Shown here in pieces: positions 2,529 to 37,536 of a stretch of DNA of 64,000 nucleotides (positions are counted from its first letter, which is position 1; each line of letters starts with the position of its first letter). Position numbers and translations under genes: made by a program. Location of the stretch: NCBI GenBank assembly GCA_963828715.1, contig CAWHFX010000018.1:9178-73177 (forward strand). Direction: 5' to 3'. The notes beneath the pieces were generated by a model. The model ran no database searches, had not been told where the DNA came from, and saw only the letters and a program-made list of their open reading frames with translations. The DNA comes from an uncultured beta proteobacterium (GTDB taxonomy: Bacteria; Pseudomonadota; Gammaproteobacteria; Burkholderiales; SG8-41).

Positions 2529-5250
2529 CTACTGCGGCGCCCGTCCGTCCGACGAAGCCGTCTGCTTCAGCACCTCGAACCAGTTGACGATCACGTGTGG
2601 GATGGCTGGTCTCTCCGGGAGTCCTTTGAGCAGCAGGAATCGGCCATCCGATGCGACGTCGAATTCTTCCAGGCCAAGTCCGTCGACGCCGCCGGAGTCA
2701 GGAACATCGAGCAGGAGTTGGGGACGAACACCGGCAAGTCCGTCCTTGCCCACCTTGACCACGAACATGTGCCGTCGATTGGAACCAAGGCCGCGATAGA
2801 AGAGCTCGGTGCTGTCACGAGACCATCGCAGCGGGCTGCTGCCGGCGGTCGAGACCTGCCAGCGTGTGCTCGAGACGTTTGGATACGGGCTGACGTAGAT
2901 CTCACTGATGCCCGACTCGCTCGACCGGTACGCCAGCCAGCGTCCGTCGGGCGAGAGCCTCGGGGTGCGCGCACGGGCCACGAGCATCTGCGCCTGACCC
3001 GTTGCCAGGTCCAGCACCTTGACGCCATCCGCATCCGTGCCAGTGACCGAGTAGATGATCTTCGTGCCGTCGGCAGAAACGGACGCCGGGTATTCTCCGC
3101 CGCTCGCGTAGGCCTGCGCGAGTGGACCCGCGGTTACCTGCGTTGGCGTCCCGGCACCATCAGCGCGCTGTCGGAACAGCCGCCCAAGCGCACCGAGCTG
3201 CGGACGCGACGCAAAGAGAAGGGTCCCGCCGTCGGCCGTCCACAGCGGCGTTTCGCTGATGCCCGCGTCGCGGGTGATGGTACTGAGCGCATGGCGCGCG
3301 AAGTCCCACACCACGATGTTCTGCTTCCCCATCGTCGCCGACTGCTCCAGCGCGACGCGCGTCATGTCAGGCGACAGCACCGGTCTACCGTATGGGCCGC
3401 GCGGCAGCTCGATCGTCGTCGTTTTCCCCGAGCGGTCCACCCACAGCAGGTCGGCATCCGTGCGTCTCTCTGAATTCGGGATGTAGGCCAAGGTGCCCGT
3501 CGAGGACACGCTGAAGTGCGCGGCACCGCCGTTGTTGAAGCGGATACCGGGCATCACCGCGACCGATGGGCCGGTCACTTCGAGGCGTGTTCGGTCGAAT
3601 GGGGCGGCCATGAGCACGCCGGTTCTCAGATAGAGAAGATGGCCGGTCGGCGAGTAGACGGCGGAGTGCCCGGTCCGATCCATCAGGACCCGCCACTTCT
3701 TCGTCGGCAGATCGACGATTCCGATCCGGACCTCCTCCAGAGAGCCCTTGAAGATCGTAAAGAGGTACCGCGCGAGTCCCCGCAACAACGCTTGGAAACC
3801 TGTGCGCAACCTCGCCGGCCGATCGATCGACCGTCGTGATCTGTTCGCGCGGTCCACCGGTCTCCGCCATGCGCGAGATGCCGGAGCCGCCCCCGGAATA
3901 GATGTAACCGTCAGCCGACCAGACCACGCCGCGATCGTTCGTGTCGATGGGGCCGATCTCGAACGGTTGACCGCCGGTGACGGCCGTGCGCCAGAGCCTT
4001 CCACTCGAGACGAATCCGATCTGCGAGCTGTCCGGTGAAAAGAACGGGTTATAGGGGTTCTCGGCCGACGACGACACGATGCGCACGTCATCGCCGCGCA
4101 GGTCCCGAACGTATACCTGCGGACCGGCGCGATCGACGGCGACGTACGCGAGATGAGTTCCGTCGGGCGAGATCGCCACCCCCGGCCCGCTCGGGCCGTC
4201 CCAGCTCACATCCTCGGGCCATTCGATCGTGAGTTTCAGCGCCGGCAGCGACCTGGGAACGGGCCACATTCTCCATGCAACCGTCCCGGCGATGACCGCG
4301 CCGGCCACGAGGCCGGCCGCAAGCATGCCCCACGAGACGCTCGCGCGTCTGGCGCTCTGAGTCAGGGAAGGTGTTCCAGCGGATCGCGACACCTCGGTGG
4401 CGTCTCGAATCTCGAGACGCGCGACGCCGATGTCGGACAAGCGATCCTTCGCGTCTTTGCTGAGGCATCGTCGCAGGAGGCGATGCACCGATGCGGGCGT
4501 CTCGTCAGGAAGAGCGGACCAGTCGGGTTCGCCTCGCACGACGGCGGCGAGAATGTCGGTAATGTTGTCACCCGGAAATACCATCTTCCCGGTCAGCATC
4601 TCGAAGAGCACGCACCCGAATGCCCAGATGTCCGTGCGCTTGTCGACTGGCTTCCCTTTCGCCTGCTCGGGCGACATGTAAGCGGCGGTGCCAAGAATGA
4701 CCCCCTGCTGCGAAACATTCGCTCGGACGGTCGGGCTCAGAAATGTCGGAGAATTGCCGTCGGGCGGCGCCACCGCCGCCGCGTCGCGCGCCTTCGCCAG
4801 TCCGAAGTCCAGCACCTTGACCACGCCGTCGATGCGGACCTTGATATTGGCGGGTTTCAGATCGCGATGAATGATGCCGCGCTCGTGCGCGGCTTCGAGA
4901 GCGTCCGCGATCTGTGTGGCGATCGACAGCACGTCGTCGAGCGGCAACGCGCCTCGCGAAATGCGCTCGGCGAGATCTTCGCCCTCGACGAGCTCCATCA
5001 CGAGTCCGGCGCCTTCGAGACCGTACACGTGGGCAATGTTGGGGTGGTTCAGGGACGCGAGCGTTTGCGCCTCGCGCGAGAAGCGGGCGAGGCGCTCGGG
5101 GTCGGCGGCGAACAGGTCGGGAATGATCTTGATCGCAACGTCGCGGTTGAGCGATGTATCACGCGCGCGATAGACCTCGCCCATCCCGCCTGCGCCGATG
5201 ACCGACACAATTTCGTACGAACCGAGCCGGGCACCTGAGGTCAGCGGCAT
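2529..5250 (-). pseudogene. Ser/Thr protein kinase with TM segment and TolB-like beta-propeller region, one frameshift
   Basis: Kinase motifs [34 protein letters not shown] lie in the frame of ORF 3385..5250. Propeller-type SPDG/FSPD repeats lie in the frame of ORF 2529..4091. Removing one base near 3764 joins the frames as ...HRFPSVVAGTRAV|LFTIFKGSLEE. Confidence 0.85.
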
Positions 5251-5294: not shown

Positions 5295-8015
5295 TCAGCG
5301 ATCAATGGGTTGCGAACGTTCGCCGTCGTCCACGGCGTCGCGCGCGTGTCCAGCTGGAGGAAGCGCCGCGAGAAACGTCAGGAGCTCGTCGTGATCGACT
5401 GGCTTGACCATGTGGGCGTCGAAGCCGGCTTCGCGGGATTGCGCCGGTCTTCGTCCTGGCCCCAGCCGGTCAGCGCCACCAGCACCAGGTCCTTCCCCCA
5501 CGGCTGCTTGCGGATCTCGCGGCACGCTTCGTAGCCGTTCATTCTCGGCAGGCCGATGTCGAGCAGCACCACGTCGGGACGACGCGCTCGGCCGCCTTGA
5601 TCGCTTCGAGGCCATCGTGCGCCTTCCACGTCTGATGACCCGCCAACTCCAGCAGCATCGCAAGCGATTCGGCGCCGTCGTCGTTGTCGTCGACGATGAG
5701 AACACGACGGGAGACCGCCGTTGGAGTTGCGCGCAGCGACAGGTGCAAGTGGAACTGCCTCGGGTAATGCCGCCGCGAGCGGCAGACGGACGGTGAATTC
5801 GCTGCCGTGGCCGGGCCCGTCGCTACGCGCATCGACGCTGCCGCCGTGCAACTCGACGAGCGTCTTCACCAGCGTGAGTCCGATGCCGAGACCATCCCGA
5901 GAACGTTCCAGCGAAGTATCCACCTGCGCAAACATGTCGAACAGGCGTGGCAAATGTTCCGCGGCAATGCCGATCCCGTTATCACGGACGCGAACGACCG
6001 CCTCGCCATCGCCTTCCTCGACGTTGAGCCACACGTGGCCACCGGGGTCGGTGAACTTGCACGCATTGTTCAAGAGGTTTCCGATCACCTGTGCCAACCT
6101 CGCGGGGTCGGCGTCGAGCTGCAGCGTGCGCGATGGCTGGGTCACGGTCAGCTCGTGGTTCATGCTCCTGTATTGCGCACGAACAGCTTCGACGGCCTGA
6201 TCGACGATCGCCGCGAGATCGACCCGGCGTTTGCGCAGCTCGATGCGGCCGCGCGTGATGCGGCTCATGTCGAGCAGGTCGTCCACCAGCCGTGACATCT
6301 GGCCGACCTGCCGCTCGAGCATGTCGGCTGCCGATTGCACCGCTTCGGCGTCGCCGCCGAGTTGCAGTGCCCGCGCCGCATTGCTGATCGGCGCCAGCGG
6401 GTTCCGCAACTCGTGCGCCAGCATCGCGAGGAACTCGTTCTTGCGTCGGTCCGCCTCGGACAGGTCCGCCGCGAGGCGTCGGAGGTTGTCCTCCAGCCGC
6501 CTCCGCTCGGTCACGTCCTGGCTCACGGTCGCCAACGCGATCGGACGACCCGAGGCGTCCGGCAATGCAAGCACCTTGTACGCCATCCAGCGGGCGTCAC
6601 CGGTTTTGAAGTGGCGGAACCGCACTTCGATCTCACCGTGGCCGCTCTCGAGCACCGACGGAAGGAATTCCTGCGTGATCCGGTGTTGATCTTCCGGAAA
6701 GAAGAACGAGGCCACGGGAGTACGCCGCGCTTCGTCCATGTCGTCGAGTCCGACCATCGCGAGCCCGGCGCGATTGACGAACAACGGCACGCCCGCCATG
6801 TCGCAGATGCCGATGAAGTCGGTGCTGTTTTCGACTAGCGTGACAAACTTCTCCTTCTCGGCCTCGGCTCGTTTGCGGTCGGTGATGTCGCGCACGATCT
6901 TCGACGCGCCAATGACGGTGCCGGCGGCGTTCTTGAGCGGAGAGATCGTCAACGACACAGCAATGTGGCTGCCATCGGCGCGCAGGCGCTCGGTTTCGAA
7001 ATGGTCGATCCGTTCTCCAGCCTTGAGGCTCGCTATGATCCGATCCTCTTCCGAAAGCCGGCCCGGTGGAATGATCAGAGAGATGTGGCGCCCCACGGCC
7101 TGCGCCGCCGGGTAGCCGAAGATCCGCTCGGCACCGGCGTTCCAACTCTGGATGATGCCGTCGAGCGACTTGCTGACGATCGCATCGTCGGACGATTCGA
7201 TAATCGAAGCGAGCAGGCGAGCGGTCATGAACTGCCTCGCCCGTTCTCGCTCGACCCGTCGCGTTTCGGAGACGTCGCGGAAGGTCAGCACGCATCCGGA
7301 CACGACGCCCTCGCTCGTCCCGAATCGGGGCGGCGCTGTCGTCGATCGGGCACTCGTCACCGTCTTTGCGAATCAGCAGGGTGTGATTCGCCAGTCCGAC
7401 AACAACGCCTTCACGAAGCGCCCGGATCGCCGGGTTCGCGACCGGCTGGCGGCTATCCTCGTTGACGATTCGAAATACGTCGTCCAATGGACGGCCGAGC
7501 GCCTCTTGCTGCGTCCAGCCCGTGACCGTTTCGGCCACGGCATTCATGAAGGTCACGCGAGCCTGCACATCGGTCGTGACGACCGCGTCGCCAATGCTGA
7601 GAAGCGTGACCCTCAGAAGCTCGCGCCGTTCGTTCGCCTGCGCCTGCGCCCGGCGGGCCGCTTCACCAAACACGATGATCAGCCCACAGGTGACGAAATA
7701 CGCGAGCATGCCGATCAATCCGGCAACACCGCCCATTGAGAACTGGCGCCTGGGCTGAATGAACAGGTAATCGCAGGCCGCAAAGCCCAGGATGACGACA
7801 GCAATCGCGGGCCTGACGCCACCGATCCACACCGCAGCGGCGACCGCTCCGAAGAGCGTGACGAGCGGCAGCGAGTCACCCATCCAGGGATCGAGCAGGT
7901 ATCGAACCAGAACTGCAGCGCCGATGGCGGCGACTGCCAGCATGTAGATGGTCAGCGGGCTTTGCGGTGTGGTGGTGGATCGTCTAACGAGTGATGGAGT
8001 TGGCTGATCGAGCAT
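5295..8015 (-). pseudogene. Hybrid sensor histidine kinase (membrane DUF4118-like, PAS x3, HisKA, HATPase_c, REC) with at least 4 frameshifts
   Basis: Start MLDQPTPSL at 8015. HisKA motif FLAMLAHELRNPL and HATPase motif DNGIGI..GLGIGL are present. REC pieces RRVLIVDDNDDG / RPDVVLLDIGLPRMNGYE / EAGFDAHMVKPV lie in three different frames. Frame changes are near 7308, between 5712 and 5790, near 5585 and near 5440. Confidence 0.85.
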
Positions 8016-8167
8016 TTCCTCATCAAGAGAGGCCTTGCACGGGCATAGTAGCTCACCATGGCGGCGAGTCAAATCCCGGTCGCACCCGGCACGAATCGAG
8101 CGGCTGAGGTAGCCCCGTGGCTGCACGCTGACGCGTTCTGCCTCAGCGTGCGGTGGGCTGCGGCAGG

Positions 8168-8290
8168 TACGGAGTGCACGGAACGAGATCAACACGGAGT
8201 CACGGGGGCACGGAGGGTAACTACTTTGGGTTTCTCCGTGGCTCCGCGTCTCCGTGTTGATCTTGTCCCGTGTGCTCCGTAACCTCCGTC
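8168..8290. repeat. Long imperfect palindrome built of CACGGAG/CTCCGTG units (hairpin downstream of the NlpC/P60 gene)
   Basis: The left arm tacggagtgcacggaacgagatcaacacggag... pairs with the reverse complement of ...ctccgtgttgatcttgtcccgtgtgctccgtaacctccgtc. The core AGATCAACACGGAG / CTCCGTGTTGATCT is a perfect 14-bp inverted repeat. Confidence 0.75.
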
Positions 8291-8844
8291 TAGCGGCGCG
8301 GTCGCCGCAGAAGCACGTCAGCGATCTGCTCCAGCACCCGGGTCGCGGCCTTCCGCCGCCCGCTTGGCGACGATGTCGGCTGCGGGAGAGGGTCAGGCAC
8401 TTCGAGGGTGTCGTCGCTGTCCGGGATCCTCCTCGCGAACATGAACCGTTCACCCCAATAGTCGTCGTCCAGGCTGTCGCGACGGACGTTTCCGTGTCGC
8501 TTGCTGGCGTCGATCATCACGCCGTTATCCTCGTAGATGCCGACGTGGGTCACGAGCGTTCCTCCGGGATCAGTCGAAAAGAACACGAGGTCGCCGCGCT
8601 GCAGTCGCCGACCGACGGGCTCCCCGGACGCCGACTGGCTGATCGCCCGTCGCGGAAGATCGATGCCGTACTTTCCATACACGTACTGAATGAGCCCCGA
8701 GCAATCGAACGAACTGGGACCCTCGGCTCCCCACGCATAGGGTCGGCCGATCAGGGTGGCGGCCAGGGCGACCGGATCCGCCGAAGCAGGGATAGCGAGC
8801 GAGAGACAACACAGAGCGATCGCGCACGTGGTTCCTGGAGACAC
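8290..8844 (-). CDS. NlpC/P60 (C40) family cell-wall peptidase
   Basis: 184-aa ORF with a signal peptide. GRPYAWGAEGPSSFDCSGLIQYVY (catalytic Cys context) and HVGIY match NlpC/P60. Confidence 0.85.
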   Translation of the reverse strand: MSPGTTCAIALCCLSLAIPASADPVALAATLIGRPYAWGAEGPSSFDCSGLIQYVYGKYGIDLPRRAISQSASGEPVGRRLQRGDLVFFSTDPGGTLVTHVGIYEDNGVMIDASKRHGNVRRDSLDDDYWGERFMFARRIPDSDDTLEVPDPLPQPTSSPSGRRKAATRVLEQIADVLLRRPRR

Positions 8845-21721: not shown

Positions 21722-22342
21722 ATGAAGTACGACTTTCTGATCGACAGCTACGACACCGAACGCCTCAAAGTGCTGAGCGTCTGGAGCGAGTTCGCCGACG
21801 ACGACCTCAGCGTCCGGCCGAAGCCGGACGACCCACGCGGACGCAGCCTCCACGAGCACATGGTCCATCAGTGCGTGAGCGAGGACAACTGGTTTCGCAA
21901 CATGCTCGGGATCGATGTCGGAGCGCCGCCGCTTCCCGAACGTGAGGTACGGCTTCAATTCATCATGCGCTACGCAGAGGACAGCGGCCGCCGGCTCGAA
22001 CGGCTCCGCCAGACCGACGACGCGTGGTGGGAGGCGCTCACATCCTTCTTCGACGTTGGCCGGTCGCGAGCCTGGGTCATGACGCGACGGCTGACGCACA
22101 CGTCGCATCACCGCGGGCAACAGATGGCGATGCTTCGCATGCTCGGACGCGAGCTGCACAGCACATATGGACCAACGGCCGACACCGGTGGCTTGATGCA
22201 GAATCATGCGCCGACGGTTTACGCCTACGCCAACCTCGAGGCGCTGCTTGAAGGTGAGGGCCGAGGCGGTGCCAAGGCTCCCCTGCCCGGCGCATCGGGC
22301 ATCGCCGTGACTGAACGTCCTGGGTTACGGCAGCGCGCGTAG
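21722..22342 (+). CDS. DinB-family (DinB_2-like) four-helix-bundle protein
   Basis: Start MKYDFLIDSYDTERLKVL at 21722. HEHMVHQCVSE ... THTSHHRGQ histidine pattern is typical of DinB-like proteins. Confidence 0.65.
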   Translation: MKYDFLIDSYDTERLKVLSVWSEFADDDLSVRPKPDDPRGRSLHEHMVHQCVSEDNWFRNMLGIDVGAPPLPEREVRLQFIMRYAEDSGRRLERLRQTDDAWWEALTSFFDVGRSRAWVMTRRLTHTSHHRGQQMAMLRMLGRELHSTYGPTADTGGLMQNHAPTVYAYANLEALLEGEGRGGAKAPLPGASGIAVTERPGLRQRA

Positions 22343-22888
22343 CCCGAAGAACTCTGCCGCTTCGGCCACGGTCGGATCGTCTAGATGCAGCGATCGAACC
22401 GAGCGGACTCGCAGCTCTGATGCGGCTCGCTCGAAAAGCGTTACGTTGATCCAGAGGGCTTCATACGTGGACCACCAGCGCACGCCCGCGGCATTGCGGT
22501 GCCGATCGTGGAGCGTCAGCGCCTGCGGCCGGGTCACCCGCCGTGCGCGGGTCGCGACCTGCGAGGGGCGAAGGCGCTCACGCCGCAGCACCACCGGGTT
22601 GTCGAGATCAACAAGCTCCGCCTCGTCGTCCAACTCGAGGTCGGCCACGGCGAGTGGCAGCCCGCGGCGGCGCAGCAACGAGGGCACCAGTCGTTGGCCG
22701 CGAAACCGGGCGAGCTGTTCGACCACCGTGGAGAGCGCAGAGACTGAGAGATACAGGCAGCCGTAGCGGTCGGGATTGTCGTGACGACCTTCACCCTGGT
22801 AGATGCGCGGAAACCAGAGCGGACCGTCGACCCCGGCGTCACCGGCTTGCTCGTCCCAAGCGAAGCACCGATGGAGGATCACGTCCAA
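22325..22888 (-). CDS. RES-domain toxin (NAD+-targeting toxin family of RES-Xre TA systems)
   Basis: 187 aa. It lies immediately downstream of an Xre/DUF2384 antitoxin gene with an 11-nt gap. RES-domain-like core (GRHDNPDRYGCLYLS...VDL...WWST). Confidence 0.75.
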   Translation of the reverse strand: MDVILHRCFAWDEQAGDAGVDGPLWFPRIYQGEGRHDNPDRYGCLYLSVSALSTVVEQLARFRGQRLVPSLLRRRGLPLAVADLELDDEAELVDLDNPVVLRRERLRPSQVATRARRVTRPQALTLHDRHRNAAGVRWWSTYEALWINVTLFERAASELRVRSVRSLHLDDPTVAEAAEFFGLRALP

Positions 22889-22898
22889 CTCCGACGGG

Positions 22899-23231
22899 TC
22901 ACGCGAAGCTATCGGATCGCTCGGCGCGGATGGCGCGCATCAACTCCTCGGTGCGTCCCATGCGAATCAGATCGACCGGGCGCCGATCCCCGAGCAGCGG
23001 GTTGACGCCGAAGAGCCAGGCGAGGGCGGCGTCCCGGTCGTAAATGCGAAGGACATTCGACCAGACGAGCTCGAGCAGATCAACCTTCTCGGCGTTGAGC
23101 GGATCGATACCGGCGCCGCGCAGCCACCGTGTCACCTGTGAGCGGCTCACGCCGAGCAGGTCGGCCAACCGCGCCGCCGAGCGGAAATCGACACTCAGCG
23201 TCCGCACCTTCTGGGCCAGGGCAACCGGCAT
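22899..23231 (-). CDS. Xre-type antitoxin with MbcA/ParS-like C-terminal domain (DUF2384)
   Basis: HTH segment LADLLGVSRSQVTRWLRG, then AALAWLFGVNPLLGDRRPVDLIRMGRTEELMRAIRA, typical of the DUF2384 antitoxin domain. Confidence 0.8.
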   Translation of the reverse strand: MPVALAQKVRTLSVDFRSAARLADLLGVSRSQVTRWLRGAGIDPLNAEKVDLLELVWSNVLRIYDRDAALAWLFGVNPLLGDRRPVDLIRMGRTEELMRAIRAERSDSFA

Positions 23232-26668: not shown

Positions 26669-27346
26669 CTAGAGGCTGTGACTTTCGTCACGCGCGCGGG
26701 ACCAGAGCTGGCGGCTCATCCGAACAGGATCGAGAATCTCCACACGCCCGGGCGACGTTCGGACGAGTTGCTCGGCGCGAAGCTCTGCGAGGACCCGTGC
26801 GACGACTTCGCGAACCGACCCCACGCTGTTGGCGAGATCCTGTTGGCTCACGAGCGCGGTGAACCGCCCGTCGGCTCCGGAACGCGACGCCGCGAGGTCG
26901 AGGAGATGGCGTGCGACCCGCTGGCGGACGGAAGCAAACGTGTTGCCGGCCAGTTCTTCGAGCACGTCGTACAACCGATGAACCGCCTCTTGCGCGAAGG
27001 CCCAGGCCACCGATGCATCGCTGCGCGCCATTCGTGTAACAAGATCGATCGCGAAGAAGAAGGCGGCGCCCGATACCACCGCTTGCACGAACACAGGTGC
27101 GGGTCCGCCAACAAGCGCCGGCACGCCCAACAGATCGCCAGCGCGGACATAGCGCACGGTGACCTGACGTCCGTCGCTGGCATGCATGTAGACGCGAAGC
27201 AGGCCCTCGAGGACGACGGCCAATCCAACGGCGTCCGCTTCGGCGTATACGGTCTGGCCGGCCGGAAATTCCACGATTCGGCCGCGTTCGACGAGCGATT
27301 CGATCGTCTCGATCGGCAACGACGCCCAACATCCCCGTCGAAGCAT
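26669..27346 (-). CDS. Crp/Fnr-family transcriptional regulator
   Basis: cNMP-binding-like beta-roll (FPAGQTVYAEADAVGLAVVLEGLLRVY...) and C-terminal HTH (SQQDLANSVGSVREVVARVLAELRAEQLV). Start MLRRGCWASLP at 27346; the ORF is open up to 27466. Confidence 0.8.
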   Translation of the reverse strand: MLRRGCWASLPIETIESLVERGRIVEFPAGQTVYAEADAVGLAVVLEGLLRVYMHASDGRQVTVRYVRAGDLLGVPALVGGPAPVFVQAVVSGAAFFFAIDLVTRMARSDASVAWAFAQEAVHRLYDVLEELAGNTFASVRQRVARHLLDLAASRSGADGRFTALVSQQDLANSVGSVREVVARVLAELRAEQLVRTSPGRVEILDPVRMSRQLWSRARDESHSL

Positions 27347-27490
27347 TGCGATGACGCCAGTGCGAGTGAATTCGGGGCGTGGCTGAAGGGGTGGATGCAC
27401 CACCTGATCAGAGTAGAACGAAACACCACTTGCACGCGACGCTGGCGGAGTGCTGGCCCGACCCAACTCACGCGTGATCGTCGCATTTCA

Positions 27491-28903
27491 CTACTGACCC
27501 GACACGCGCTCCTGGCGCAGCCGCAAAATCTCGTCGCTGGCGTCGAACCGCGAATCGACGAGCGGGCGAGGCGCGAGACCGAGCCCAATCAGTGCGATCA
27601 CGAGTGCCACGAATGTCCACGCTTCGCGCGGCCTCAACCCGAGCCGCAGGCTGGGATGCGCCAGCACCTCCGAGCGGCCGCAGAAGAGCGAAAAGTACAT
27701 CCGCAGCACGGCCAGGCCGGTCAGCGCCGACGCAATGACGACGGCGAATCCCATGACCGGGAACACGTCGACGGCGCCGTCGACCAGAAGCTCCTGACCG
27801 ATGAAGCCGAGCGTTCCCGGAAAGCCGGTGCACGCGAGCCCCATGGCGAGAAAGCTGATCGCCAGCAGCGGCATGCGCTCGTACCCGCCGTGATACGTGG
27901 TCAGATCGAGCCGCCCGCGGCGCGCCTCGAGGACGAGGACGCGAGCGGGCGAGTCCCGCAAACCCCAACCCTGCCGACAGCCACACTACCAGGCCACCGG
28001 CCAGCGCGGTCACGCTCGTGCAGTCGAGGCCAGCCATCACCAGCGCCGACTGACTCATGAAGAGGTAGCCGCATGCCCGACGGGCGCTGCGTCTGAACCA
28101 GCGCGAGCGCCGCACCGTACACGGCGGTCCCGAGCGCCAGGAGGGCGATGATCCGCAGCATCTCGGGCGAGGCCCGCGGCACGATCAGCACCACGGTCAT
28201 GTACGCGCCCACCTGCGGGGCGTTGAACAGGATGGCGGGGCCCAGTCGTCCGTGATCGAATACCTCCGGCACCCACGCGTGAAACGGCACAATCCCTTTC
28301 CGCACGAGCGCGGCGATCACGATCAACCACATGGCCGCCGTTTCGACGCGCGGTGTTCTGCGCGCCAGGACTGACGAGCAGCGCGACGCCGATCGCAAAC
28401 AACAGCGTCGAGACGCCCAGATACACCGCCACGACGCGGCGCTGGTACTGATGCGCGGGATCCGCGAGTGCGGACAGGAACGTCCAGACGGAGGCCACCG
28501 ACAAGATGAGGAGTACGAGCGCGCTTTCCGTGAGAAAGGACGCCAGCGTGATCAGCGTCGCGAGGGCGGTTCGCCGCAAGCCCCGCCGATCGAGCGCTGC
28601 GCGCGGCGTGACCGCGACGGTGAGCAGCCACAGTCCTGCCGCGAACGGCAGAAGGGCGGCCGAGAGCGTGTCGATCCGAATGATGTCTTCTCCGCCGGGA
28701 ATCCAGCTGAGCGCGGAGGTGCGGATCGAGAAGTCGCGCAGAGGTGGCGAGAGCGGGATGACGAGAGCCGCCAGCACCATGGCGATCGCCGACGCGACCG
28801 CCAGCCGTCGCAGTCGTTCGACATCGACGCGCAGAAAGGAGGTGCCGATCACGAGCGCGGGCAGCGCGACGAGCCCGGCAAGCCACAGCCGTGCGTCACT
28901 CAT
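27491..28903 (-). pseudogene. NuoM/NuoN-like proton-conducting membrane transporter (PF00361-type), 3 frameshifts
   Basis: Start MSDARLWLAGLV overlaps the dabB stop (ATGA). Family pieces IVPFHAWVPEVF..., ACGYLFMSQSALVMAGL, GFPGTLGFIGQELL lie in four frames. Frame changes are near 28360, 28090 and 27955. Confidence 0.75.
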
Positions 28904-30257
28904 CTCGATCGCCTCCGTCGACCGCAGCCGGGTACTCGAGCCGGCAGCACGGCATCGCACAGCCACTGGTCGAGACGTGTGAGCAGGCGTGCGAGTCGAG
29001 TAAAGGGCTCGACCACGACACGGTCGAGGATGCTGTCGAGGAATCCACGTTCGAGCGCGATCAGGAACAGCCGTCGACGGGCGCGCTCCGATCCGACCAC
29101 TCCGAGGTGGCCGCCATCCGGAGAGGCGTGGTCACCGATGGCGTCTTCGATTCCGTGCAGATCGTGGAGGACGTTCGGCGCGCTCAGGAATTGCAGCAGC
29201 CGAAAGCAGGCGTGTCCCGCCAGATGGACGAACGCGATCGTGTACCAGCCGATGGCGATTTCGACGACGATGAGGCCAACCTGCGTGAGGGAGGCGTAGG
29301 CGAGCGACGACTTCACGTCGCTCTGCACGCGCGTCGTGATCCCGGCGAACAATGCCGTGGCCGCGCCGAGGCCGCCGGCCAGGAGCCGGGCCGCAGGTGC
29401 CTGTTCGAGCAGCGGCGCCGCACGCAGCAACAGAAAGCAGCCGGCGTGAATCGAGAGCGACCCATAGTAGACGGCGCTCGACGGTGTGGGCCCCTCCATC
29501 GCTCGCGGCAGCCAGCTCGAAAAGGGCAGCAACGCGCTCTTGCCCGCGACGGCCACGATGAGGAGGATGGCGATGATCGTCGCGTTGGTGGCCGTCAGCG
29601 TGGCGGTCGAAGCCGCCCGCCGCCAAACAGGAGCGACAGGCTGTCGGTGCCGGCGACGTGCCGCAGCAGGACCGCGGCCGACAGCATGGCCGCGTCGCTG
29701 ATGCGGTAGACCGACAGGACGCGAAACGCATTCGACACCGCGGCGGGCCGCTCGTGGAAGAACGCGACGAGCAGCGCCGAGCTGAGACCGACGAGTTCCC
29801 ACCCGATGAAGAGGACCGCCACGTTCCCGGCAAGCGCCACCAGCAGCATGCCCGTGACGAACATCGCCAGCAGCACGAAGTAGCGGTTGTAGCCTGACTC
29901 CCGGTGCAGGTATCGATTCGAAAACGCCGACACGACGCCGGCGATGGCGGTCGAGAGCGTCGCGAACGCCAGCGAGAGTCGATCGACGAGGAACTCGATC
30001 GCGATGCCGCCCTCGTGGGAGGCCGACCAGGCGCCGTACGAGAGCAGTTGCGTGGCGGTTCCCGTCATGCCGTACACGACGAACGCCACGAACAACGCGG
30101 CGCACGCCATCGTCATCGAACTGCCGGCGAGCAGGCCCGTCCAGCGCTCCGGCAGCGGGCGGTTGACGAGTGACGCGCCGCCGAGCAGCGCGAGCAGGAG
30201 CGCCGGCGATCCGACGCCGACCAGCACCAACACCGCGAGAGGAACGCTCGTCGTCAC
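28900..30257 (-). pseudogene. dabB: DabB-like NuoL/MrpA-type proton-conducting subunit, 1 frameshift
   Basis: Candidate GTG start at 30257 (VTTSVPLAVLVLVG). NRYLHRESGYNRYFVLLAMF..LFIGWELVGLSS lies in one frame and GKSALLPFSSWLPRAMEGPTPSSAVYYGSLSIHAG in another. The frame change is near 29620. Confidence 0.75.
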
Positions 30258-33221
30258 GCCGAGGCTCGCGAGCGTGACCGAGGGCTCCCGGCACGATCGC
30301 CACCGGAGGAAGAAAGCCGCGCTTGCCCTGGTACCACGCGGCCGATTCGCCCGCGACCACCGCGAGGGCGTGTTCCGGCGTGTGCGCGACGAAGCCGGTC
30401 GAGCGGAGCTCCCACAACGCGCCGGACTCCGCGTCGAGGCAGGCGAGCCAGATCCAGCGGTTACGCACGAGCCGTTCGATGTTCGGGTTGGCCTCGACGA
30501 CACGCCGCAGGCGATCGCGCGTGCCCTCCACCACAATCGCCAGCCGGGTGGGCTCGTGGATCTCGACCATCTGCCAGGGAAGACCGGTGCGCAAATCGCT
30601 CTGCGCACCGTCCATGACGCCAAGGAGCGACGTCACGTTGTGCGGCAGCTTGGTGCCGCAGCCGTATCCGGTCGGATCGACGTAGCTGAAGTAGTACTCG
30701 AGGTTGATCCCGGCGACGACGGGCACGACGGCGGCCATGATGCGCGCGAGGATCGCGCCATCGTCGTCGCGCGACGGATCGTACGAGACCAGGAACGCGC
30801 GGCGGTCGAGGAACAATCCTCGTGTTCGCGTCCGCCGACCGATGATGCAGAACGCGTTCGTCGCATGGCCGTACTCGGGACGCGGCTGCGCCAGATCGTC
30901 GGCGCGCCCCTGCACGTGCGCGAGCGCCGCCGCCGGCGGATACCAATGCGGGACGCCGTCGAACCGGCGGCACCGTTCGTGCGCCTCGCGACGCCTCGTC
31001 GTCTCAATCGCGTCCACGGCTCGCTCGAACAGCGGTCGGCGAGACGCGGGAAGGAGATCCTCGTCGAAGAACGTCACCTCGTTGTTGCAGGTGTTGCGCT
31101 GGGCTCCGACGAACCACGTGGTCGCGTCGATCGCCAGGCCCTCGGCGGCAAGCAGCCGGCGCACGCGCGGATCGTTGGCCATCTGCGCGAAGGCGCGGGC
31201 GTTCGGCCCACCCCGTCCGCCACCGCACGCCCCGCAGTCATGAGCCGACTCGTGGGGATTGTTGAGGCTGATCGATCCGTGTCCGATCACGAGCACGAGC
31301 GGCGAGAGGCGATCGCGAATGCCGAGGTCTTCAATGACGCGACGGACGATATCCGCCATCTCCCGCACGGTGAACCCGGAATACTTCCCGATGGGCGGCG
31401 CCTCGTCCTCGCGATCCAGTTGCAGGCGGGTTCGGCTGGCGGTGAATGGAGGTCTGCTGGATCCGGCGCCATCGTGACGAGAGCCATGGGAAGACCACGC
31501 GCAGGACCAGCGGAACGAGCGCCAGCCAGCCGAACGCCGTCATCAGCACCGCGCCGCGCATCGGCAGCCGGCTTCCCAGATGCACGTTGTAGCCGAGGAA
31601 GCCGGCGGCCCGCCGGTGCAGACGCCGCGTGCGCTGCATGAGGCGATCCCCGTCCGCTTCGATTTCGGCGACGTAGTGGTCGGGACGAATCGCCACAGGG
31701 CAGAGCGGCCGCGGGTGAGCGTCCGTCACGCCCTCGTGATACATCGCCACGTTGAAGAAGCCGGCGGTGCTGAACGTCTCGCAGGCTGGCTCGACCTCCT
31801 CCAGGTGCCGGCGAAACGATTCCTCCCGCTCGTCGATGCAGAAAATCGCCTGGAACGCCGGCGGCCCGGGAGGCCCGTGCGGTGTGTGGTGCATGAGCGC
31901 GTCGTACAGGCGATGACGAATCGCTCGCTCGAACGCCTGGTGCAGGATGCGACGCCGGCGCACGCCGTCGAGCTGTCGCAGCTCGGATTCGAGCTCCGCC
32001 ACGTGCCGCGGCGTCCACTGCTCGACGATCGACGGATCGAGGCCGCAGAGCTGTGCGACGTGAAAGAGCGGCCACGCCCGTTCGATGGCCGTCGGAGGCG
32101 ATGCGACAGGGAGCTGATCCCGAAGCCAGTCGCGGAGCTGCCGACAAAGGTCCAGCTGAAGGAGAGTTGTCGCGCCGCCTCGTCGAGCGCGGCCCGTTCG
32201 AACAGCAGGCGCACCGCGAGGTATCCGCGCAACGTGACCGTGAGATCCCGTGCCGGGACACGGTCGGGCCGCTCTTCGATCTGACGCACGATGCCGGCCC
32301 AGCCTCGCAGGGCGAGCAATTCGGCGCGCAGATAGTCGACGCACTCGTCATCGTCGACACCGAGCTGAGCCGAGGGAGTGGGCGATCGAGTCGAGCGCGT
32401 TCCGCTCGGCGGCGTGGTCGTCGGCGACGAGGCGAGGGAGCGTTCGGGCCCAACGGCCGCACTGCGCCGCCAGCGACGTGCGGTAGATCTCCAGAAAGCA
32501 ACCATGGATCCCGCGGTCCCTCTCGGGCATGGACCAGTGCGCGAGACCCTGATCGAGGTAACCAGCCAGGAATCGAATGAGCGGCGGATGGATCCAGGCA
32601 TCGGTGTCGACACCGTGCACGGCGAGCAGCCAGTCGCGATGGCGAACCGGAGTCTCCACGCGCGGGAACCGGCGACGTGTCGGCGCGTCGCACCGCCTCG
32701 AGGCACGCGTTCCACAACCGGCGCACCGCCTGCCGTTCGTCGTCCACGCGATCGTTCAGTTCGCGCAGCGCGATCAACGCCGACCGGGCGCTCGCCGGCA
32801 CATCGGTGCGGAATCGGGACAAGGCCTCGGTTTCCTCGAGGATCCACGAGAGCTCCCGCCCCGTCGCGTCTGGAATGCCGTGCAGCACCACGGCCCGCCA
32901 GAGATCGAGCCGCGATCCGACGCCCGCGACATCCTCCGTCGCGCTGGCGCCCAGTTGTTCGAGGAGCAGGGCTTCGACGTCTCTCGGGCGAATGCGGCCG
33001 GACGCCAGCTTGTCGCGATATCGCGACTCGGCCAGGAACGGCTCGCGCCCGAGCCGGATCGCGGCATGCTCGACCGCCTCTTCGAACGGCAGGTGCTCGA
33101 ACGCGTGCAGCGTGTTGTGGTGAATGAAGATGCTGATCGGCCCCTGCGCCGGCAGCAGATGCGCGAGCTGATCGATCACGCGCGTCAGCGGATGGTCCGG
33201 TGAGCCGGCGTCGGTGAGCAT
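30258..33221 (-). pseudogene. dabA: DabA (DUF2309) inorganic-carbon pump subunit, at least 4 frameshifts
   Basis: N-terminus ...LLPAQGPISIFIHHNTLHAFEHLPFEEAV; middle FLAGYLDQGLAHW, AIFCIDEREESFRRHLEE; C-terminus GHGSISLNNPHESAHDCGACGG..., PHNVTSLLGVMDG. The pieces occupy five frames, with changes near 32665, 32370, 32155 and 31430. The 3' end is ill-defined, with no clean stop before dabB. Confidence 0.8.
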
Positions 33222-33267
33222 CGACGGCCTTGATAGTATATTAATATTACTATATTATTCTTTACGA
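33222..33267. promoter_or_regulatory. 46-bp AT-rich divergent control region between dabA and arsR-family gene, with palindrome ATATTAATAT
   Basis: cgacggccttgatagtatattaatattactatattattctttacga. It is nearly pure A/T in a very GC-rich context. The 10-bp perfect palindrome is at 33237..33246. Confidence 0.6.
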
Positions 33268-33657
33268 ATGCCGCAGAAGCGAGGCGCGAGGCGCAGCGAG
33301 CCGGTCGTCGCCGGCGAGCTTCAGACGTTCAAGGCGCAGTTCTTTCGCGCGCTCGCCCATCCCACCCGGATCCGAATGCTGGAGATCCTCGTGCGAGGCG
33401 GACGCACGGTCCAGGAGCTGCAGGAGGCATTGGCGCTGGACCAGCCGATCGTCTCGCAGCAGCTGGCCGTGCTCCGCAACCAGGGCATCGTGTCGGCGCA
33501 GAAGGAAGGATTGTCGGTGCGATACGCCCTGCGCGACCCGCTCATCGGCGCGCTGCTCGATGTCGCCCGGCGGATTTTTGACAATCGTCTGGGTAACTCG
33601 CGGGGACTGCTGCGTGAGCTGCGGCGAGAGCGCCCTTCGCACCGCCTGTCGCGTTGA
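33268..33657 (+). CDS. ArsR/SmtB-family transcriptional regulator
   Basis: FFRALAHPTRIRMLEILVRGGRTVQELQEALALDQPIVSQQLAVLRNQGIVSAQKEGLSVRYAL is a canonical ArsR wHTH. Start MPQKRG at 33268. Confidence 0.88.
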   Translation: MPQKRGARRSEPVVAGELQTFKAQFFRALAHPTRIRMLEILVRGGRTVQELQEALALDQPIVSQQLAVLRNQGIVSAQKEGLSVRYALRDPLIGALLDVARRIFDNRLGNSRGLLRELRRERPSHRLSR

Positions 33658-34919: not shown

Positions 34920-37536
34920 ATGAAAGCTGGTGACACGCTCGGGGCGTATCGCGTCCTGGGCAAGCTTGGCGAAGGCGGAATGGGTGAGGTCTATCGCGCG
35001 CGCGATACGAAGCTCAATCGCGACGTCGCGATCAAGGTCCTGCCGGAGATCTTCGCGCTCGATCCGGATCGCCTGGCGCGGTTCACGCGCGAGGCGCAGT
35101 GCTGGCGTCGCTGAACCATCCGAACATCGCCGCGATCTACGGGATCGAGGGAGCAGGCGCTGGTGATGGAGCTGGTCGACGGCGAGGACCTGTCGGCAAT
35201 CATCGCGCGCGGTCCGATGCCGATCGCCGAGGCGCTCCCAGTCGCGCGGCAGATTGCGGACGGCGCTCGAAGCGGCGCACGAACAGGGCATCGTCCATCG
35301 CGATCTGAAGCCGGCGCAACATCAAGGTCCGCGCCGACGGCACGGTGAAGGTGCTCGACTTCGGCCTCGCGAAGGGCGATGGATCCGGCATGGCGTCTGT
35401 CGAGCGCGGACGCGATGCACTCACCGACGCTGACGGCGCGTGCGACCCAGCTCGGCGTGATTCTCGGAACGGCGGCCTACATGGCGCCGGAGCAGGCGCG
35501 CGGCAAGGCGGTGGACAGGCGCGCCGATATCTGGTCATTCGGCCTCGTCGTTTACGAGATGCTGACGGGTCGCCGCGCCCTCCAGGGAGAGGAAATCGTC
35601 CGACGTGCTTGCCGCCGTGCTGCGCCAGGACATCGACTGGTCCGCGCTGCCATCCGACACGCCGCCGCGTCTGCGCCGGCTCCTCGAGCGTTGTCTCGAT
35701 CGCGACGTCAAGCAGCGCCTGCGCGATATCGGCGAGGCGCGAATCGCGCTGGGAAGCGCCATCGAGTCCGAACCGGCGCCCGGCCGCCCGGCGCGGCGCT
35801 CGCCGCTCTGGGTGCTTGCGGCGCTGGCGTCCGCGTCTTTGGCTGTGGCGGCGTTCGTGGTGTTGAACCGGCCGGCCGCACTTCAGAAACCCTCGATTCG
35901 CTTCACGATTCCGCTTCCGCCTGGCGAGGAGATCACGTCGTACCCAGCGATTACACGCGACGGTCGCACACTCGCCTATGTCACCGAGCGGGGGGCCAAC
36001 GATGCGCAACTCTACCTGCGCGATCTGAATGCGTTCGAACCGCGCGTAGTGGCGGGATCGAGCGGCGCGCGTCAGCCGTTTTTTTCACCTGACGGCAAAT
36101 GGATTGCGTTCTTCGCCCAGGGTCAGCTGCAAAAGGCCGAGGTGACCGGCGGTGCTCCCGTCCGGCTGACCGAAGCCGCATATCCTTTCGGCGGGACGTG
36201 GAACGACGACGACACGATCATTTACGCCGCATCGCTCGGCTCAGGCCTCCTGCGGATCAGAGCGAGCGGCGGCAGTCCTGAATCACTGACCAAACCTGAC
36301 GGCGCGGCACAAGGATACGCTCACGTGTTTCCGCAAACGCTTCCCGGTGGACGGAGCGTGCTGTTCACGATGTGGGGACAGACACAGGGCAGCAAGGTAC
36401 TATTCCTGGATTCAGGCCAGTCGGATCTGATCCTGCGGGGGGAGAATTTCGCCGCCGCGACCTTCCAGGCAACCGGCGGCTCGAGCGGTCGTCTGCTGCT
36501 GTCCGATCAGGTCGCCGGCATCCGGGCGGCGCCGTTTGACGTCGCCCACCCGGTGCCGACGAGCGCCGATGCGTCGGTGCTGACGAACGTGAACTACGAG
36601 GTGGAAACCGAAAGCGTCGGCTGGCTGGCGGTCTCGAACACCGGCACCGCCGTGTACGCGACTGGCAACCCGTCGCGAGCGTCGCTGGTCTGGGTCGATC
36701 GCGCGGGAAAAATCGAGTCGCTCGGCACCGGGCAGGAGAAGTATCGGGAGGCCAGCCTCTCGCTCGACGGACAGAAGGCCGTCGTCAGGGACGGTCTCGA
36801 CCTCTGGATTCATGACCTGCAGCGCGGCACGCGAAGCCGCCTGACCTCGGGCACCGGCAGCAATATCCTTCCGCAGTGGAGCCGCGACGGCACACGGATC
36901 GTGTTCGCGTCGAATCGAGGTGGCGACTGGGACATCTACGGGCAACCGGCCGATGGGGCGCGGCCTGCGGAAGCGCTGCTCAAGCGGCCTCACGATCAGT
37001 TTCCACTTGCGCTGCTGGCCGACGGGACGCTGCTCTACACCGAGATCGATCCGAAGACCGGCCGGGACCTCTGGATTCTGTCTCCGGATGGGAAGACCTC
37101 TCCATTGCGGGTCACGCCTTACAACGAAACCGCGGGTCAGTTCTCCCCGGGCCCGGAGGGCGGCCCTCGCTGGCTCGCTTATTCATCCGACGAATCGGGA
37201 CGGAGCGAGATCTACGTGCAGTCATATCCGGGCGGCGCGAACAGGATCCCGGTCTCGACCGGCGGTGGCATCCTGCCGATGTGGTCGCCCGACGGCAAGG
37301 AACTGTTCTATGTGACAGGAGACGCGGTCGTGGCCGTGCCGTTGCGGCCTGACGGGTCCTTCGGCGCGCCTCAACGGCTATTCGACCGATCGACCATGCT
37401 GTTCAATCACCGGTTCCACAGCTACGGTGTCTCGCACGACGGCAAACGGTTCCTCGTGATTCTGCGCGATCCGGGATCGGTGCCGCGGCAGCTCAACGTG
37501 ATTCTCAACTGGACTGACGAGATCGGCCGACCATGA
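34920..37536 (+). pseudogene. Ser/Thr protein kinase with TolB-like beta-propeller region; 6 indels confined to the kinase domain
   Basis: Kinase pieces [27 protein letters not shown] / [16 protein letters not shown] / LVMELVDGEDLS / IVHRDLKPA / VKVLDFGLAK / GTAAYMAPEQARGK are scattered over three frames. Changes are near 35099, 35155, 35262, 35317, 35375 and 35598. From 35605 to 37536 a single 643-aa frame is open (TM plus FSPDGK/WSPDGK blades). Confidence 0.85.

What the first reader, a model, noticed from the sequence alone, without database searches (positions are those of the whole stretch)
27491..33657. ArsR-linked DabA/DabB-type inorganic-carbon pump operon with an extra NuoM/N-like gene, riddled with 8-9 single-base indels
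The minus-strand order is dabA (DUF2309; HDCGACGG motif), a NuoL-like dabB, and a second PF00361-type gene that is ATGA-coupled to dabB. A Crp/Fnr gene lies downstream and a divergent ArsR-family gene upstream.

Every one of the three pump genes is broken. There are 4 or more frame changes in dabA, 1 in dabB and 3 in the third gene. The flanking regulators and about 15 kb of other genes are intact.

This suggests specific loss of an energy-coupled CO2/bicarbonate uptake system. The alternative is a locally poor assembly. The three-gene architecture with two antiporter-like subunits is also less commonly described than the two-gene DabAB.
Basis: partly seen in the sequence, partly recalled or inferred. 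Interest (0 to 1): 0.7.

Follow-up and report, generated by a model that had tools for sequence, protein, structure and literature searches.

The report
Intact CO2-pump operon, assembly-error frameshifts
The broken-looking inorganic-carbon pump operon is almost certainly an intact, ordinary three-gene DAB operon of a soil Vicinamibacterales bacterium, and its twelve single-base "frameshifts" are consensus errors of a long-read metagenome assembly rather than gene loss.

Summary
The gene identifications are right: a divergent ArsR gene, then on the minus strand dabA, a NuoL-like dabB and a NuoM-like third gene, with Crp/Fnr downstream.

The frame breaks are real in the sequence. There are 12 (7 in dabA, 2 in dabB, 3 in the third gene): eleven 1-nt insertions and one 1-nt deletion.

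They are not specific to the pump. The Ser/Thr kinase 1.3 kb away changes frame at least 6 times, and three more genes at 1.9-7.3 kb are split.

Removing the 11 extra bases and filling the missing one restores full-length ORFs (986, 453, 469 aa). These have no internal stops, are 92-97% identical to intact orthologues, have dN/dS of 0.13-0.21, and carry only 6 lineage-specific amino-acid changes.

In 10 of 11 cases the inserted base repeats the alternative allele of an adjacent polymorphic site (P = 5.6e-5). Two other long-read contigs show the same roughly 12 "+1" events at different positions. No other locus examined has a split dab gene except two more long-read MAGs.

The best reading is a mixed-population long-read consensus artefact.

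The three-gene layout is the norm for this DabA clade across five phyla and was noted in 2017. Interest is low.

The parts
33214..33657 (+). ArsR/SmtB-family metalloregulator, divergent from dabA. The likely start is the ATG at 33268 (129 aa). It is intact.
   Evidence: PF01022 HTH_5 E = 8e-12. NCBIfam NF033788 scores 82.8 bits, above the cutoff of 55. An ArsR gene sits in the same divergent position in most of the closer Acidobacteriota and Myxococcota loci.
30254..33221 (-). dabA (DUF2309/PF10070), 986 aa after correction. In the window it is interrupted by seven 1-nt insertions.
   Evidence: The pieces tile PF10070 positions 1-747. The corrected protein matches PF10070 1-747 in one stretch, E = 1e-233, and is 92% identical to intact P0001. 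The Zn-site motifs FCID, GHGS and DCGAC align to DabA2, PDB 9rd0.
28896..30257 (-). dabB, a NuoL-like antiporter-type membrane subunit, 453 aa after correction. Its GTG start overlaps the dabA stop (GTGA). It is interrupted by a 1-nt deletion (29615) and a 1-nt insertion (28929).
   Evidence: PF00662 + PF00361. The best NCBIfam match is NuoL, but below cutoff. It is 94.7% identical to the L001 orthologue.
27491..28903 (-). Third gene, a full-length NuoM/ND4-like PF00361 protein, 469 aa after correction. Its start overlaps the dabB stop by 8 nt. It is interrupted by three 1-nt insertions.
   Evidence: PF00361. The best solved-structure matches are NuoM: E = 9e-18 for the single sequence and E = 3.5e-31 for the family profile. 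It is 97% identical to the L001 orthologue.
32660..32660 (-). Spurious extra base 1 (dabA).
   Evidence: Present in the window only, against L001, L002 and L003. The adjacent column is polymorphic (G/C/A) in relatives.
32371..32371 (-). Spurious extra base 2 (dabA).
   Evidence: At this column relatives carry C (15), G (7) or T (2); the window carries C and G in tandem.
32142..32154 (-). Spurious extra bases 3 and 4 (dabA), at 32154 and 32142. Together they give a net +2 shift.
31446..31446 (-). Spurious extra base 5 (dabA).
   Evidence: The neighbouring column is polymorphic (A in 12 relatives; T, C and G in 4 each); the window carries AT.
30273..30291 (-). Spurious extra bases 6 and 7 (dabA 3' end), at 30291 and 30273. 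They hide the true TGA stop at 30254-30256.
29615..29615 (-). One missing base (dabB). It lies where relatives differ by a 3-nt indel polymorphism.
   Evidence: L001 and L002 have one more base here, and L003 has 3 fewer.
28929..28929 (-). Spurious extra base 8 (last 12 codons of dabB).
28347..28347 (-). Spurious extra base 9 (third gene).
28091..28091 (-). Spurious extra base 10 (third gene).
   Evidence: The neighbouring column is A in 15 relatives and C in 4; the window carries AC.
27943..27943 (-). Spurious extra base 11 (third gene).
   Evidence: None of 27 public metagenome contigs that carry the homologous gene with identical 19-nt flanks has an extra base here.
26669..27466 (-). Crp/Fnr-family regulator downstream. 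It is intact and is not part of the conserved cassette.
   Evidence: PF00027 + PF13545. Homology to all relatives stops at 27491.
34920..37536 (+). Neighbouring Ser/Thr kinase-PD40 gene. It changes frame at least 6 times within 34920-35598 (kinase domain); the PD40 part is clean.
   Evidence: guided by the in-window paralogue. Five of the 6 shifts are in the +1 direction.

Best explanation
The locus is an intact, functional four-gene cassette of a Vicinamibacterales (Acidobacteriota) soil bacterium. It comprises arsR, dabA, dabB and a NuoM-like third subunit. By homology it encodes an energy-coupled vectorial carbonic anhydrase (a DAB-type CO2-to-bicarbonate pump).

The twelve frame breaks are not mutations. 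They are consensus errors of a long-read, most likely Nanopore-only, metagenome assembly.

The cassette is 85-94% identical in DNA between genomes whose flanks are unrelated. Reads from co-occurring related populations are therefore collapsed onto it. At sites where those populations differ by a SNP, the consensus emits both alleles side by side, which produces a +1 insertion. The same thing happens in the paralogue-rich kinase domain next door.

Shown: the lesions, their types and positions, their coincidence with polymorphic sites, the absence of decay, the association with long-read MAG assemblies, and errors of this kind between two assemblies of one population.

Inferred: that the window itself comes from such an assembly, and the exact consensus mechanism.
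For: 1. Lesion spectrum. There are 11 one-nt insertions and 1 one-nt deletion, and none lies in a homopolymer longer than 2.

2. Branch comparison. On the window's own branch there are 22 substitutions against 11 indels. Three intact relatives show 159:0, 320:4 and 520:3; all but one of their indels (a 2-nt event in L003) are multiples of 3.

3. No decay. The corrected ORFs are full length with zero internal stops. dN/dS is 0.13-0.21. There are only 6 lineage-specific amino-acid changes, against 48, 76 and 131 in the relatives. The corrected DabA matches PF10070 end to end.

4. Allele doubling. The inserted base equals an alternative allele at an adjacent column in 10 of 11 cases using 6 relatives at >=85% identity (null 0.305, P = 5.6e-5), and in 5 of 11 using the 2 closest (null 0.089, P = 0.0016). 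The one deletion sits on a 3-nt indel polymorphism.

5. Replication. L033 (an MFD Nanopore MAG) has 12 unique +1 insertions and no 1-nt deletion. L084 (a 911-kb ENA contig) has 11 insertions and 1 deletion. Both sets lie in the dab operon at different positions and carry the same allele-doubling bias (P = 0.025 and 0.017). L084 also has a split enolase gene.

6. Platform association. Split dab genes occur in 3 of 8 MFD long-read loci and in 0 of 71 others (Fisher P = 7e-4). The MFD MAGs are Nanopore R10.4.1, Flye plus one round of Medaka, with no short-read polishing, from soils with high microdiversity (PMC12313526).

7. Same population, independent assembly. L083 is 99.5% identical to window 58335-64000 yet differs by five 1-nt and two 3-nt indels, three of the 1-nt ones at (C)TCGAG sites. 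In L083 these break a gene that is intact in the window.

8. Not pump-specific. The kinase, the histidine kinase and the FAA hydrolase are broken too, mostly by +1 shifts.

9. Public contigs. None of 27 contigs with the homologous site carries the extra base at 27943.
Against: - No reads are available, so the artefact is inferred and not observed.
- The window's own contig and sequencing platform could not be identified.
- No copy of the cassette from the same population (>=99% identity) is on record for direct comparison; the best is 92-94%.
- Five of 8 MFD loci have clean dab operons, so the error is not universal for that pipeline.
- The allele-doubling replication in L033 and L084 is only moderately significant.
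- The specific behaviour of Flye/Medaka at mixed SNP sites is my inference. I did not read it in a paper.
Confidence: 0.86

Rival explanations
1. Genuine, very recent pseudogenisation. The organism has lost its DAB pump, and several kinases, through real single-base insertions.
For: The breaks are in the sequence as given and are clustered on the operon. Other contigs of this clade (L033, L084, L031) also show broken dab genes, which could be read as recurrent loss.
Against: The 11:1 excess of insertions, all exactly 1 nt, runs against the deletion bias and size spread that bacterial pseudogenes normally show (background knowledge). There are no nonsense codons, no excess of nonsynonymous change, and a very short terminal branch. 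The insertion sites track polymorphic sites and copy the other allele. Broken copies occur only in long-read MAG assemblies (3 of 8 MFD loci against 0 of 71 others, plus the long ENA contig L084). A housekeeping enolase gene is split in one of those contigs. An independent assembly of the same population differs from the window by similar indels.
Confidence: 0.05
2. An artefact with a different cause: plain low-coverage long-read noise or failed polishing in a patch of the contig, unrelated to strain or paralogue mixing.
For: The breaks cluster in patches at 1.9-7.3 kb and 27.9-35.6 kb, while about 16 kb of long ORFs are clean. Nanopore-only consensus is known to keep indels at modest coverage (PMC9262707). 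(C)TCGAG-linked indels elsewhere in the window point to systematic basecalling errors.
Against: Random noise would not place 10 of 11 insertions next to polymorphic columns with the matching alternative allele. It would not hit the same conserved cassette in three independent contigs. It would also be expected to give a more even mix of insertions and deletions. GC content does not separate broken from clean regions.
Confidence: 0.08
3. Programmed recoding: the genes are expressed through ribosomal frameshifting.
For: None beyond the presence of frame changes.
Against: There are twelve shifts with no shared slippery motif. All are absent from orthologues that are 92-94% identical in DNA and have ordinary continuous ORFs.
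Confidence: 0.005

Closest known systems
DAB2 (DabA2-DabB2) of Halothiobacillus neapolitanus; structure PDB 9rd0 (bioRxiv 10.1101/476713; PMC13144422)
   Same: DabA is a PF10070 protein with the beta-carbonic-anhydrase-like zinc site; the FCID, GHGS and DCGAC motifs align. It is paired with a NuoL-like PF00361 subunit in one operon. The expected mechanism is CO2 hydration coupled to the cation gradient.
   Different: DAB2 has two genes, and DabA2 is 827 aa. Here DabA is 986 aa, DabB is shorter (453 against 551 aa), and a third, full-length NuoM-like gene always follows. The phmmer match to DabA2 is strong only over the C-terminal half (residues 423-928).
DAB1 (DabA-DabB-DabC) heterotrimer of Thermocrinis albus and H. 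neapolitanus (bioRxiv 10.64898/2026.05.01.722082)
   Same: It has three subunits and a long DabA (DabA1 is 1046 aa). The third, membrane subunit sits where NuoM sits next to NuoL, and lacks the canonical proton-path residues. Here the TM7 Lys is Arg and the TM8 Lys is Gln, both nearly invariant.
   Different: DabC is small, about half of NuoM, and belongs to no Pfam family. The third protein here is a full-length (469-486 aa) PF00361 member. The gene order is also different. Homology between the two could not be tested because no DabC sequence was on hand.
'Clade C' ybcC neighbourhoods in COGNAT (Klimchuk et al. 2017, PMC5700660)
   Same: This is the same layout: ybcC/dabA upstream of the nuoL homologue, with an added COG1008 (NuoM) gene and sometimes a SulP gene. 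L084 has SulP next to dabA.
   Different: That paper only noted the neighbourhood. No function or structure was assigned, and the CA-pump role was not yet known.
Cyanobacterial CO2-uptake modules NdhF3/NdhD3/CupA and NdhF4/NdhD4/CupB (background knowledge)
   Same: A NuoL-like plus NuoM-like pair of antiporter-type subunits is combined with a soluble vectorial CO2-hydrating protein.
   Different: Those modules are attached to the redox-driven NDH-1 complex, and CupA is unrelated to DabA. No NDH-1 genes are adjacent here.
Frameshift errors in Nanopore-only metagenome-assembled genomes (PMC9262707; PMC12313526)
   Same: Indel-only lesions split otherwise conserved genes. They are found in long-read MAG assemblies only and differ between independent assemblies of one population.
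   Different: The classic error is an indel in a homopolymer. Here the lesions are +1 insertions outside homopolymers that duplicate SNP alleles. I did not find that mode described in the papers I read.

Membership tests
DAB inorganic-carbon pump (DabA/DabB) | DabA is a full-length PF10070/DUF2309 protein. | tested here: met
   The corrected protein matches PF10070 positions 1-747 of 747, E = 1e-233. The uncorrected pieces tile the same profile.
DAB inorganic-carbon pump (DabA/DabB) | Beta-CA-like zinc ligands (Cys, Asp, His, Cys; C351, D353, H524, C539 in DabA2). | tested here: met
   For orthologue P0001, the FCID, GHGS and DCGAC motifs align to DabA2 (PDB 9rd0). The same motifs are present in the window translation. 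The residue numbering is from the DAB papers and was not re-derived here.
DAB inorganic-carbon pump (DabA/DabB) | An adjacent, co-oriented PF00361 NuoL-like membrane subunit. | tested here: met
   dabB has PF00662 + PF00361, overlaps the dabA stop by GTGA, and scores best against NuoL.
DAB inorganic-carbon pump (DabA/DabB) | Energy-coupled CO2 hydration or inorganic-carbon uptake activity. | not testable with these tools
   This needs complementation of a carbonic-anhydrase-free E. coli strain, or uptake assays.
DAB1 subtype (DabABC) | [quoted passage not shown] | tested here: not met
   The third protein is 469 aa and has PF00361. It is NuoM-class over most of its length.
DAB2 subtype (DabAB) | A two-gene operon. 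| tested here: not met
   A third PF00361 gene follows dabB in essentially every locus of this clade that has enough sequence.
Respiratory complex I NuoL / NuoM proper | The protein scores above the curated cutoffs of the NuoL/NuoM models, and the other nuo genes are present in the operon. | tested here: not met
   DabB scores 232.9 bits against NF005141 (cutoff 556). The third protein scores 112.7 bits against TIGR01972 (cutoff 263.8). No other nuo genes are adjacent.
Genuine pseudogene | Signs of relaxed selection: internal stops, raised dN/dS, excess lineage-specific substitutions. | tested here: not met
   There are no internal stops. dN/dS is 0.13-0.21. There are 6 unique amino-acid changes against 48-131 in intact relatives.
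Genuine pseudogene | The lesions are reproducible in independent data from the same population. | not testable with these tools
   No reads and no copy at >=99% identity are on record. At one site, none of 27 homologous public contigs has the extra base.
Long-read consensus artefact | Indel-only lesions restricted to long-read assemblies. | tested here: met
   Split genes occur in 3 of 8 MFD Nanopore loci, plus L084, against 0 of 71 other loci.
Long-read consensus artefact | Independent assemblies of one population disagree by indels. | tested here: met
   L083 against window 58335-64000: 99.5% identity, with five 1-nt and two 3-nt indels.
Long-read consensus artefact | The window itself derives from a long-read assembly. 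| tested here: inconclusive
   The source contig was not found. A near-identical population is present in ENA assembly ERZ25039580, which has Flye-style contig names.

The most novel reading that the evidence does not exclude
Setting the frameshifts aside, the cassette represents a widespread and experimentally uncharacterised third DAB architecture: a long DabA, a short NuoL-like DabB and a full-length NuoM-like subunit. In that third subunit the canonical TM7 and TM8 lysines are replaced by a nearly invariant Arg and Gln. It would be the full-size counterpart, perhaps the ancestor, of the small DabC of DAB1, forming a heterotrimer with two antiporter-type modules. It is found mainly in lineages not known as CO2-fixing autotrophs (Vicinamibacterales, Planctomycetota, Myxococcota, Elusimicrobiota), and in the Vicinamibacterales and Myxococcota loci it lies next to an ArsR/SmtB-type regulator.
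Probability: 0.55. Interest if true: 0.45.

Novelty: new member of a known kind. Interest (0 to 1): 0.17.

Why it matters
As a biological finding it matters little. The operon is one more member of a known pump family, and the supposed loss is not real.

It has practical value in two ways.

First, it shows a specific failure mode. Where a conserved cassette is shared by co-occurring populations, long-read MAG consensus can insert the alternative SNP allele as an extra base. This produces dense, insertion-only frameshifts that mimic targeted pseudogenisation. Surveys of gene loss in long-read soil MAGs would be misled by it.

Second, it documents that the dabA, dabB, NuoM-like layout is universal in a DabA clade spanning at least five phyla. 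That is a reasonable target for the groups now solving DAB1 and DAB2 structures.

Tried and rejected
- **Homopolymer slippage as the cause.** Rejected. No insertion lies in a run longer than 2.
- **GC-rich patch as the cause.** Not supported. Clean regions at 13-14, 20-21 and 38-40 kb have similar GC.
- **Methylation-motif miscalls at (C)TCGAG.** This explains indels between the window and L083 at 63121, 60144 and 59961, but not the dab insertions, which lack that motif.
- **Finding the window's own contig or platform.** Exact-protein look-ups failed for the 856-aa, 129-aa and 656-aa products. The 415-aa product matched only a 10-kb contig of another assembly, and the 50-200 kb contig on record could not be read.
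- **Finding a same-population dab copy.** A search with a frameshift-free DabA segment gave 93% at best.
- **L031 and L037.** Both were too divergent from the intact relatives (about 70% and 58% identity) for reliable indel typing.
- **A possible GCWGC motif near some insertion sites.** Noticed but not tested.
- **Crp/Fnr as part of the system.** Rejected, because homology to every relative stops at 27491.
- **The Viterbi frame tracker.** It gives 0-3 false candidates per 23 kb on short-read loci, so isolated candidates such as 43269 and 57332 were not counted.
Full report
**What is in the sequence**

On the minus strand of 27491-33221 lie three genes. Their pieces match DabA (PF10070, profile positions 1-747 tiled over at least five frame segments), a NuoL-like protein (PF00662 + PF00361) and a second PF00361 protein. 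A GC3 frame plot and a codon-usage Viterbi tracker show the coding frame switching repeatedly without gene boundaries. The divergent ArsR/SmtB gene (33214/33268-33657) and the downstream Crp/Fnr gene (26669-27466) are intact.

**Where exactly the lesions are**

A stitched DabA is 92% identical over its whole length to intact proteins of 986-989 aa, which NCBI names as Vicinamibacterales. Three intact loci (L001-L003) have the same layout: a divergent arsR, then dabA, dabB and a third PF00361 gene. They are 86-93% identical to the window in DNA.

Alignment against them places twelve window-specific lesions:
- 1-nt insertions in dabA at 32660, 32371, 32154, 32142, 31446, 30291 and 30273;
- a 1-nt insertion at the dabB 3' end at 28929;
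- 1-nt insertions in the third gene at 28347, 28091 and 27943;
- a 1-nt deletion in dabB at 29615.

None lies in a homopolymer longer than two. The two insertions at the dabA 3' end hide its real stop. That stop overlaps the GTG start of dabB as GTGA.

**The breaks are not specific to the pump**

- The Ser/Thr kinase-PD40 gene that begins 1.3 kb beyond arsR changes frame at least six times within its kinase domain (34920-35598). Five of the six are in the +1 direction, and its 1.9-kb PD40 part is clean.
- A paralogous kinase-PD40 gene (2529-5250) is split near 3801.
- A sensor histidine kinase (5378-8453) is split near 7313 and 5767.
- An FAA-hydrolase gene is shifted near 1894.

The breaks are clustered: about 18 of about 24 lie in 7.7 kb (P = 2e-9). 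Long ORFs at 9.9-21.3 kb and 37.6-42.7 kb are clean.

**No sign of decay**

Deleting the eleven extra bases and filling the missing one yields continuous ORFs of 986, 453 and 469 aa with no internal stops. They are 92.4%, 94.7% and 97.0% identical to the L001 proteins, with dN/dS of 0.13-0.21, the same range as between intact relatives. The corrected DabA matches PF10070 end to end (E = 1e-233), and the two membrane proteins match their domains.

The window has only 6 lineage-specific amino-acid changes, against 48, 76 and 131 in L001, L002 and L003. At the DNA level its own branch carries 22 substitutions and 11 one-nt indels. The relatives carry 159:0, 320:4 and 520:3, and all but one of their indels (a 2-nt event in L003) are multiples of three.

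A pseudogene that had collected twelve indels by mutation should carry many more substitutions, including nonsense codons. By what is generally known of bacterial pseudogenes, it should also show a bias to deletions of mixed sizes. The opposite is seen on every count. The very short terminal branch also makes the window look like a population consensus.

**The technical signature**

At most sites the inserted base is the alternative allele that relatives carry in the adjacent, polymorphic column. The window therefore holds both alleles in tandem. For example, it has CG where relatives have C or G at 32371, AT at 31446 and AC at 28091.

I tested this against a null of random single-base insertions into the same sequence:

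| Relatives used | Compatible insertions | Null rate | P |
|---|---|---|---|
| 6 at >=85% identity | 10 of 11 | 0.305 | 5.6e-5 |
| 2 closest (>=90%) | 5 of 11 | 0.089 | 0.0016 |

. The single deletion sits where relatives differ by a 3-nt indel. Mutations have no reason to copy the neighbouring population's allele. A consensus built from a mixture of haplotypes does.

**Replication and platform association**

Among 79 loci from species-representative genomes, split dab genes occur only in three MFD MAGs, L031, L033 and L037. That is 3 of 8 MFD loci against 0 of 71 others (P = 7e-4).
- L033 has twelve unique +1 insertions and no 1-nt deletion in its dab operon.
- A further long contig, L084 (911 kb, ENA), has eleven +1 insertions and one deletion. 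Its neighbouring enolase gene is also split.

The positions differ between the three contigs, and both replicates show the allele-doubling bias (P = 0.025 and 0.017). The frame tracker finds 7-13 frameshift candidates per 23 kb in several MFD loci against 0-3 in short-read MAG loci.

The MFD genomes are Nanopore R10.4.1 only, assembled with Flye and polished once with Medaka, from soils of high microdiversity (PMC12313526). Nanopore-only consensus is known to retain frameshifting indels at modest coverage (PMC9262707).

**Direct evidence of assembly-level indels in this population**

A protein of the window (60981-62228) occurs identically on a 10-kb contig of ENA assembly ERZ25039580. That contig is 99.5% identical to window 58335-64000. 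A global alignment shows five 1-nt and two 3-nt indels between the two. Three of the 1-nt indels lie at (C)TCGAG sites: the window lacks a G at 63121, and the other contig lacks a C at 60144 and at 59961. On that contig these break a gene that is intact in the window and in a Logan assembly.

In addition, at site 27943, 27 public metagenome contigs carry the homologous gene with identical 19-nt flanks, and none has the extra base. The nine pattern matches that do have an extra base are chance hits in unrelated DNA.

**Why here**

Homology between the window and every relative starts and stops sharply at 27491 and about 33632. The flanks are unrelated, while the cassette is 85-94% identical between genomes. 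Such a cassette will recruit reads from co-occurring related populations. The kinase domain is likewise multi-copy.

I infer that collapsed, mixed read sets at these places make the consensus emit both SNP alleles. This step is inference. I did not find this error mode described in the papers I read, and I have no reads.

**What the system is**

By homology it is a DAB-type vectorial carbonic anhydrase. DabA carries the zinc-site motifs that align to the solved DabA2. DabB is NuoL-like. The third protein is NuoM/ND4-class (E = 9e-18 alone, 3.5e-31 as a family profile). Both membrane proteins score far below the cutoffs for true complex I subunits.

In the third protein family, the TM7 lysine of NuoM is a nearly invariant arginine (R201) and the TM8 lysine a nearly invariant glutamine (Q230). 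It probably does not pump protons in the canonical way. This recalls the small DabC of DAB1, which occupies the NuoM position, has lost those residues and is nevertheless required (10.64898/2026.05.01.722082).

The locus fits neither DAB2 (two genes) nor DAB1 (small DabC with no Pfam domain).

The three-gene layout is universal in this DabA clade. It occurs across Acidobacteriota, Myxococcota, Elusimicrobiota, Planctomycetota (including cultured Tautonia sociabilis) and Verrucomicrobiota. It was already noted as 'clade C' of ybcC neighbourhoods, with COG1008 NuoM and sometimes SulP (PMC5700660). It is real and uncharacterised, but not new.

**Verdict**

The preferred interpretation, specific loss, is not supported.

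I put 0.86 on a long-read mixed-population consensus artefact, 0.08 on unspecific long-read noise and 0.05 on real pseudogenisation. Interest is low.

The only parts worth carrying forward are the error mode, as a caution for pseudogene surveys in long-read MAGs, and the uncharacterised three-subunit DAB variant.

Noticed in passing
window 58335-64000 vs L083/L085 (ENA ERZ25039580 contig_61424): Two assemblies of the same population (99.5% identity) differ by 1-nt indels at (C)TCGAG sites: the window lacks a G at 63121, and L083 lacks a C at 60144 and at 59961. This looks like a systematic miscall at a methylated XhoI-like motif, hinting at a CTCGAG methyltransferase in this organism.
   Followed up: partly
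window 27491 and about 33632 (cassette boundaries): Homology to all relatives begins and ends sharply at the stop of the third gene and the end of arsR, and the flanks are unrelated in every genome. Polyangiaceae and Myxococcales MAGs carry the cassette at about 69-72% DNA identity (L019, L022). The four-gene unit seems to move or be retained as a module, possibly by horizontal transfer.
   Followed up: partly
window 2529-5250 (-), 5378-8453 (-), 1455-2456 (-): A second Ser/Thr kinase-PD40 gene (shift near 3801), a DUF4118-PAS-HisKA-HATPase-receiver sensor kinase (shifts near 7313 and 5767, possibly 5575) and an FAA-hydrolase gene (shift near 1894) are also frame-broken, mostly in the +1 direction.
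   Followed up: partly
L084 3742-4924 and 6833-8623: In the 911-kb ENA contig, the housekeeping enolase gene is split into 169 + 208 aa. In that genome a SulP/STAS transporter gene, not arsR, lies divergent from dabA, matching the COG0659 association noted by COGNAT.
   Followed up: no
L056 10254-11633: The third gene of a Terriglobales MAG (contig name k141_..., as in short-read assemblers) contains one in-frame stop codon in the tblastn-defined range. It could be a real nonsense mutation or an alignment running past a boundary.
   Followed up: no
window 22325-23231 (-): A RES-domain protein (22325-22888) is followed upstream by a small same-strand ORF region (22902-23231). This is a possible RES-Xre toxin-antitoxin pair.
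   Followed up: no
window dab cassette, corrected sequence: The corrected window sequence is closer to every relative than the relatives are to each other. It has 22 unique substitutions against 159-520 in the relatives. It behaves like a population consensus, not a tip lineage.
   Followed up: partly
window 59274-59286: A 13-nt patch has 5 mismatches and a 1-nt indel relative to L083, inside otherwise near-identical sequence. It is probably another mixed-haplotype spot.
   Followed up: no
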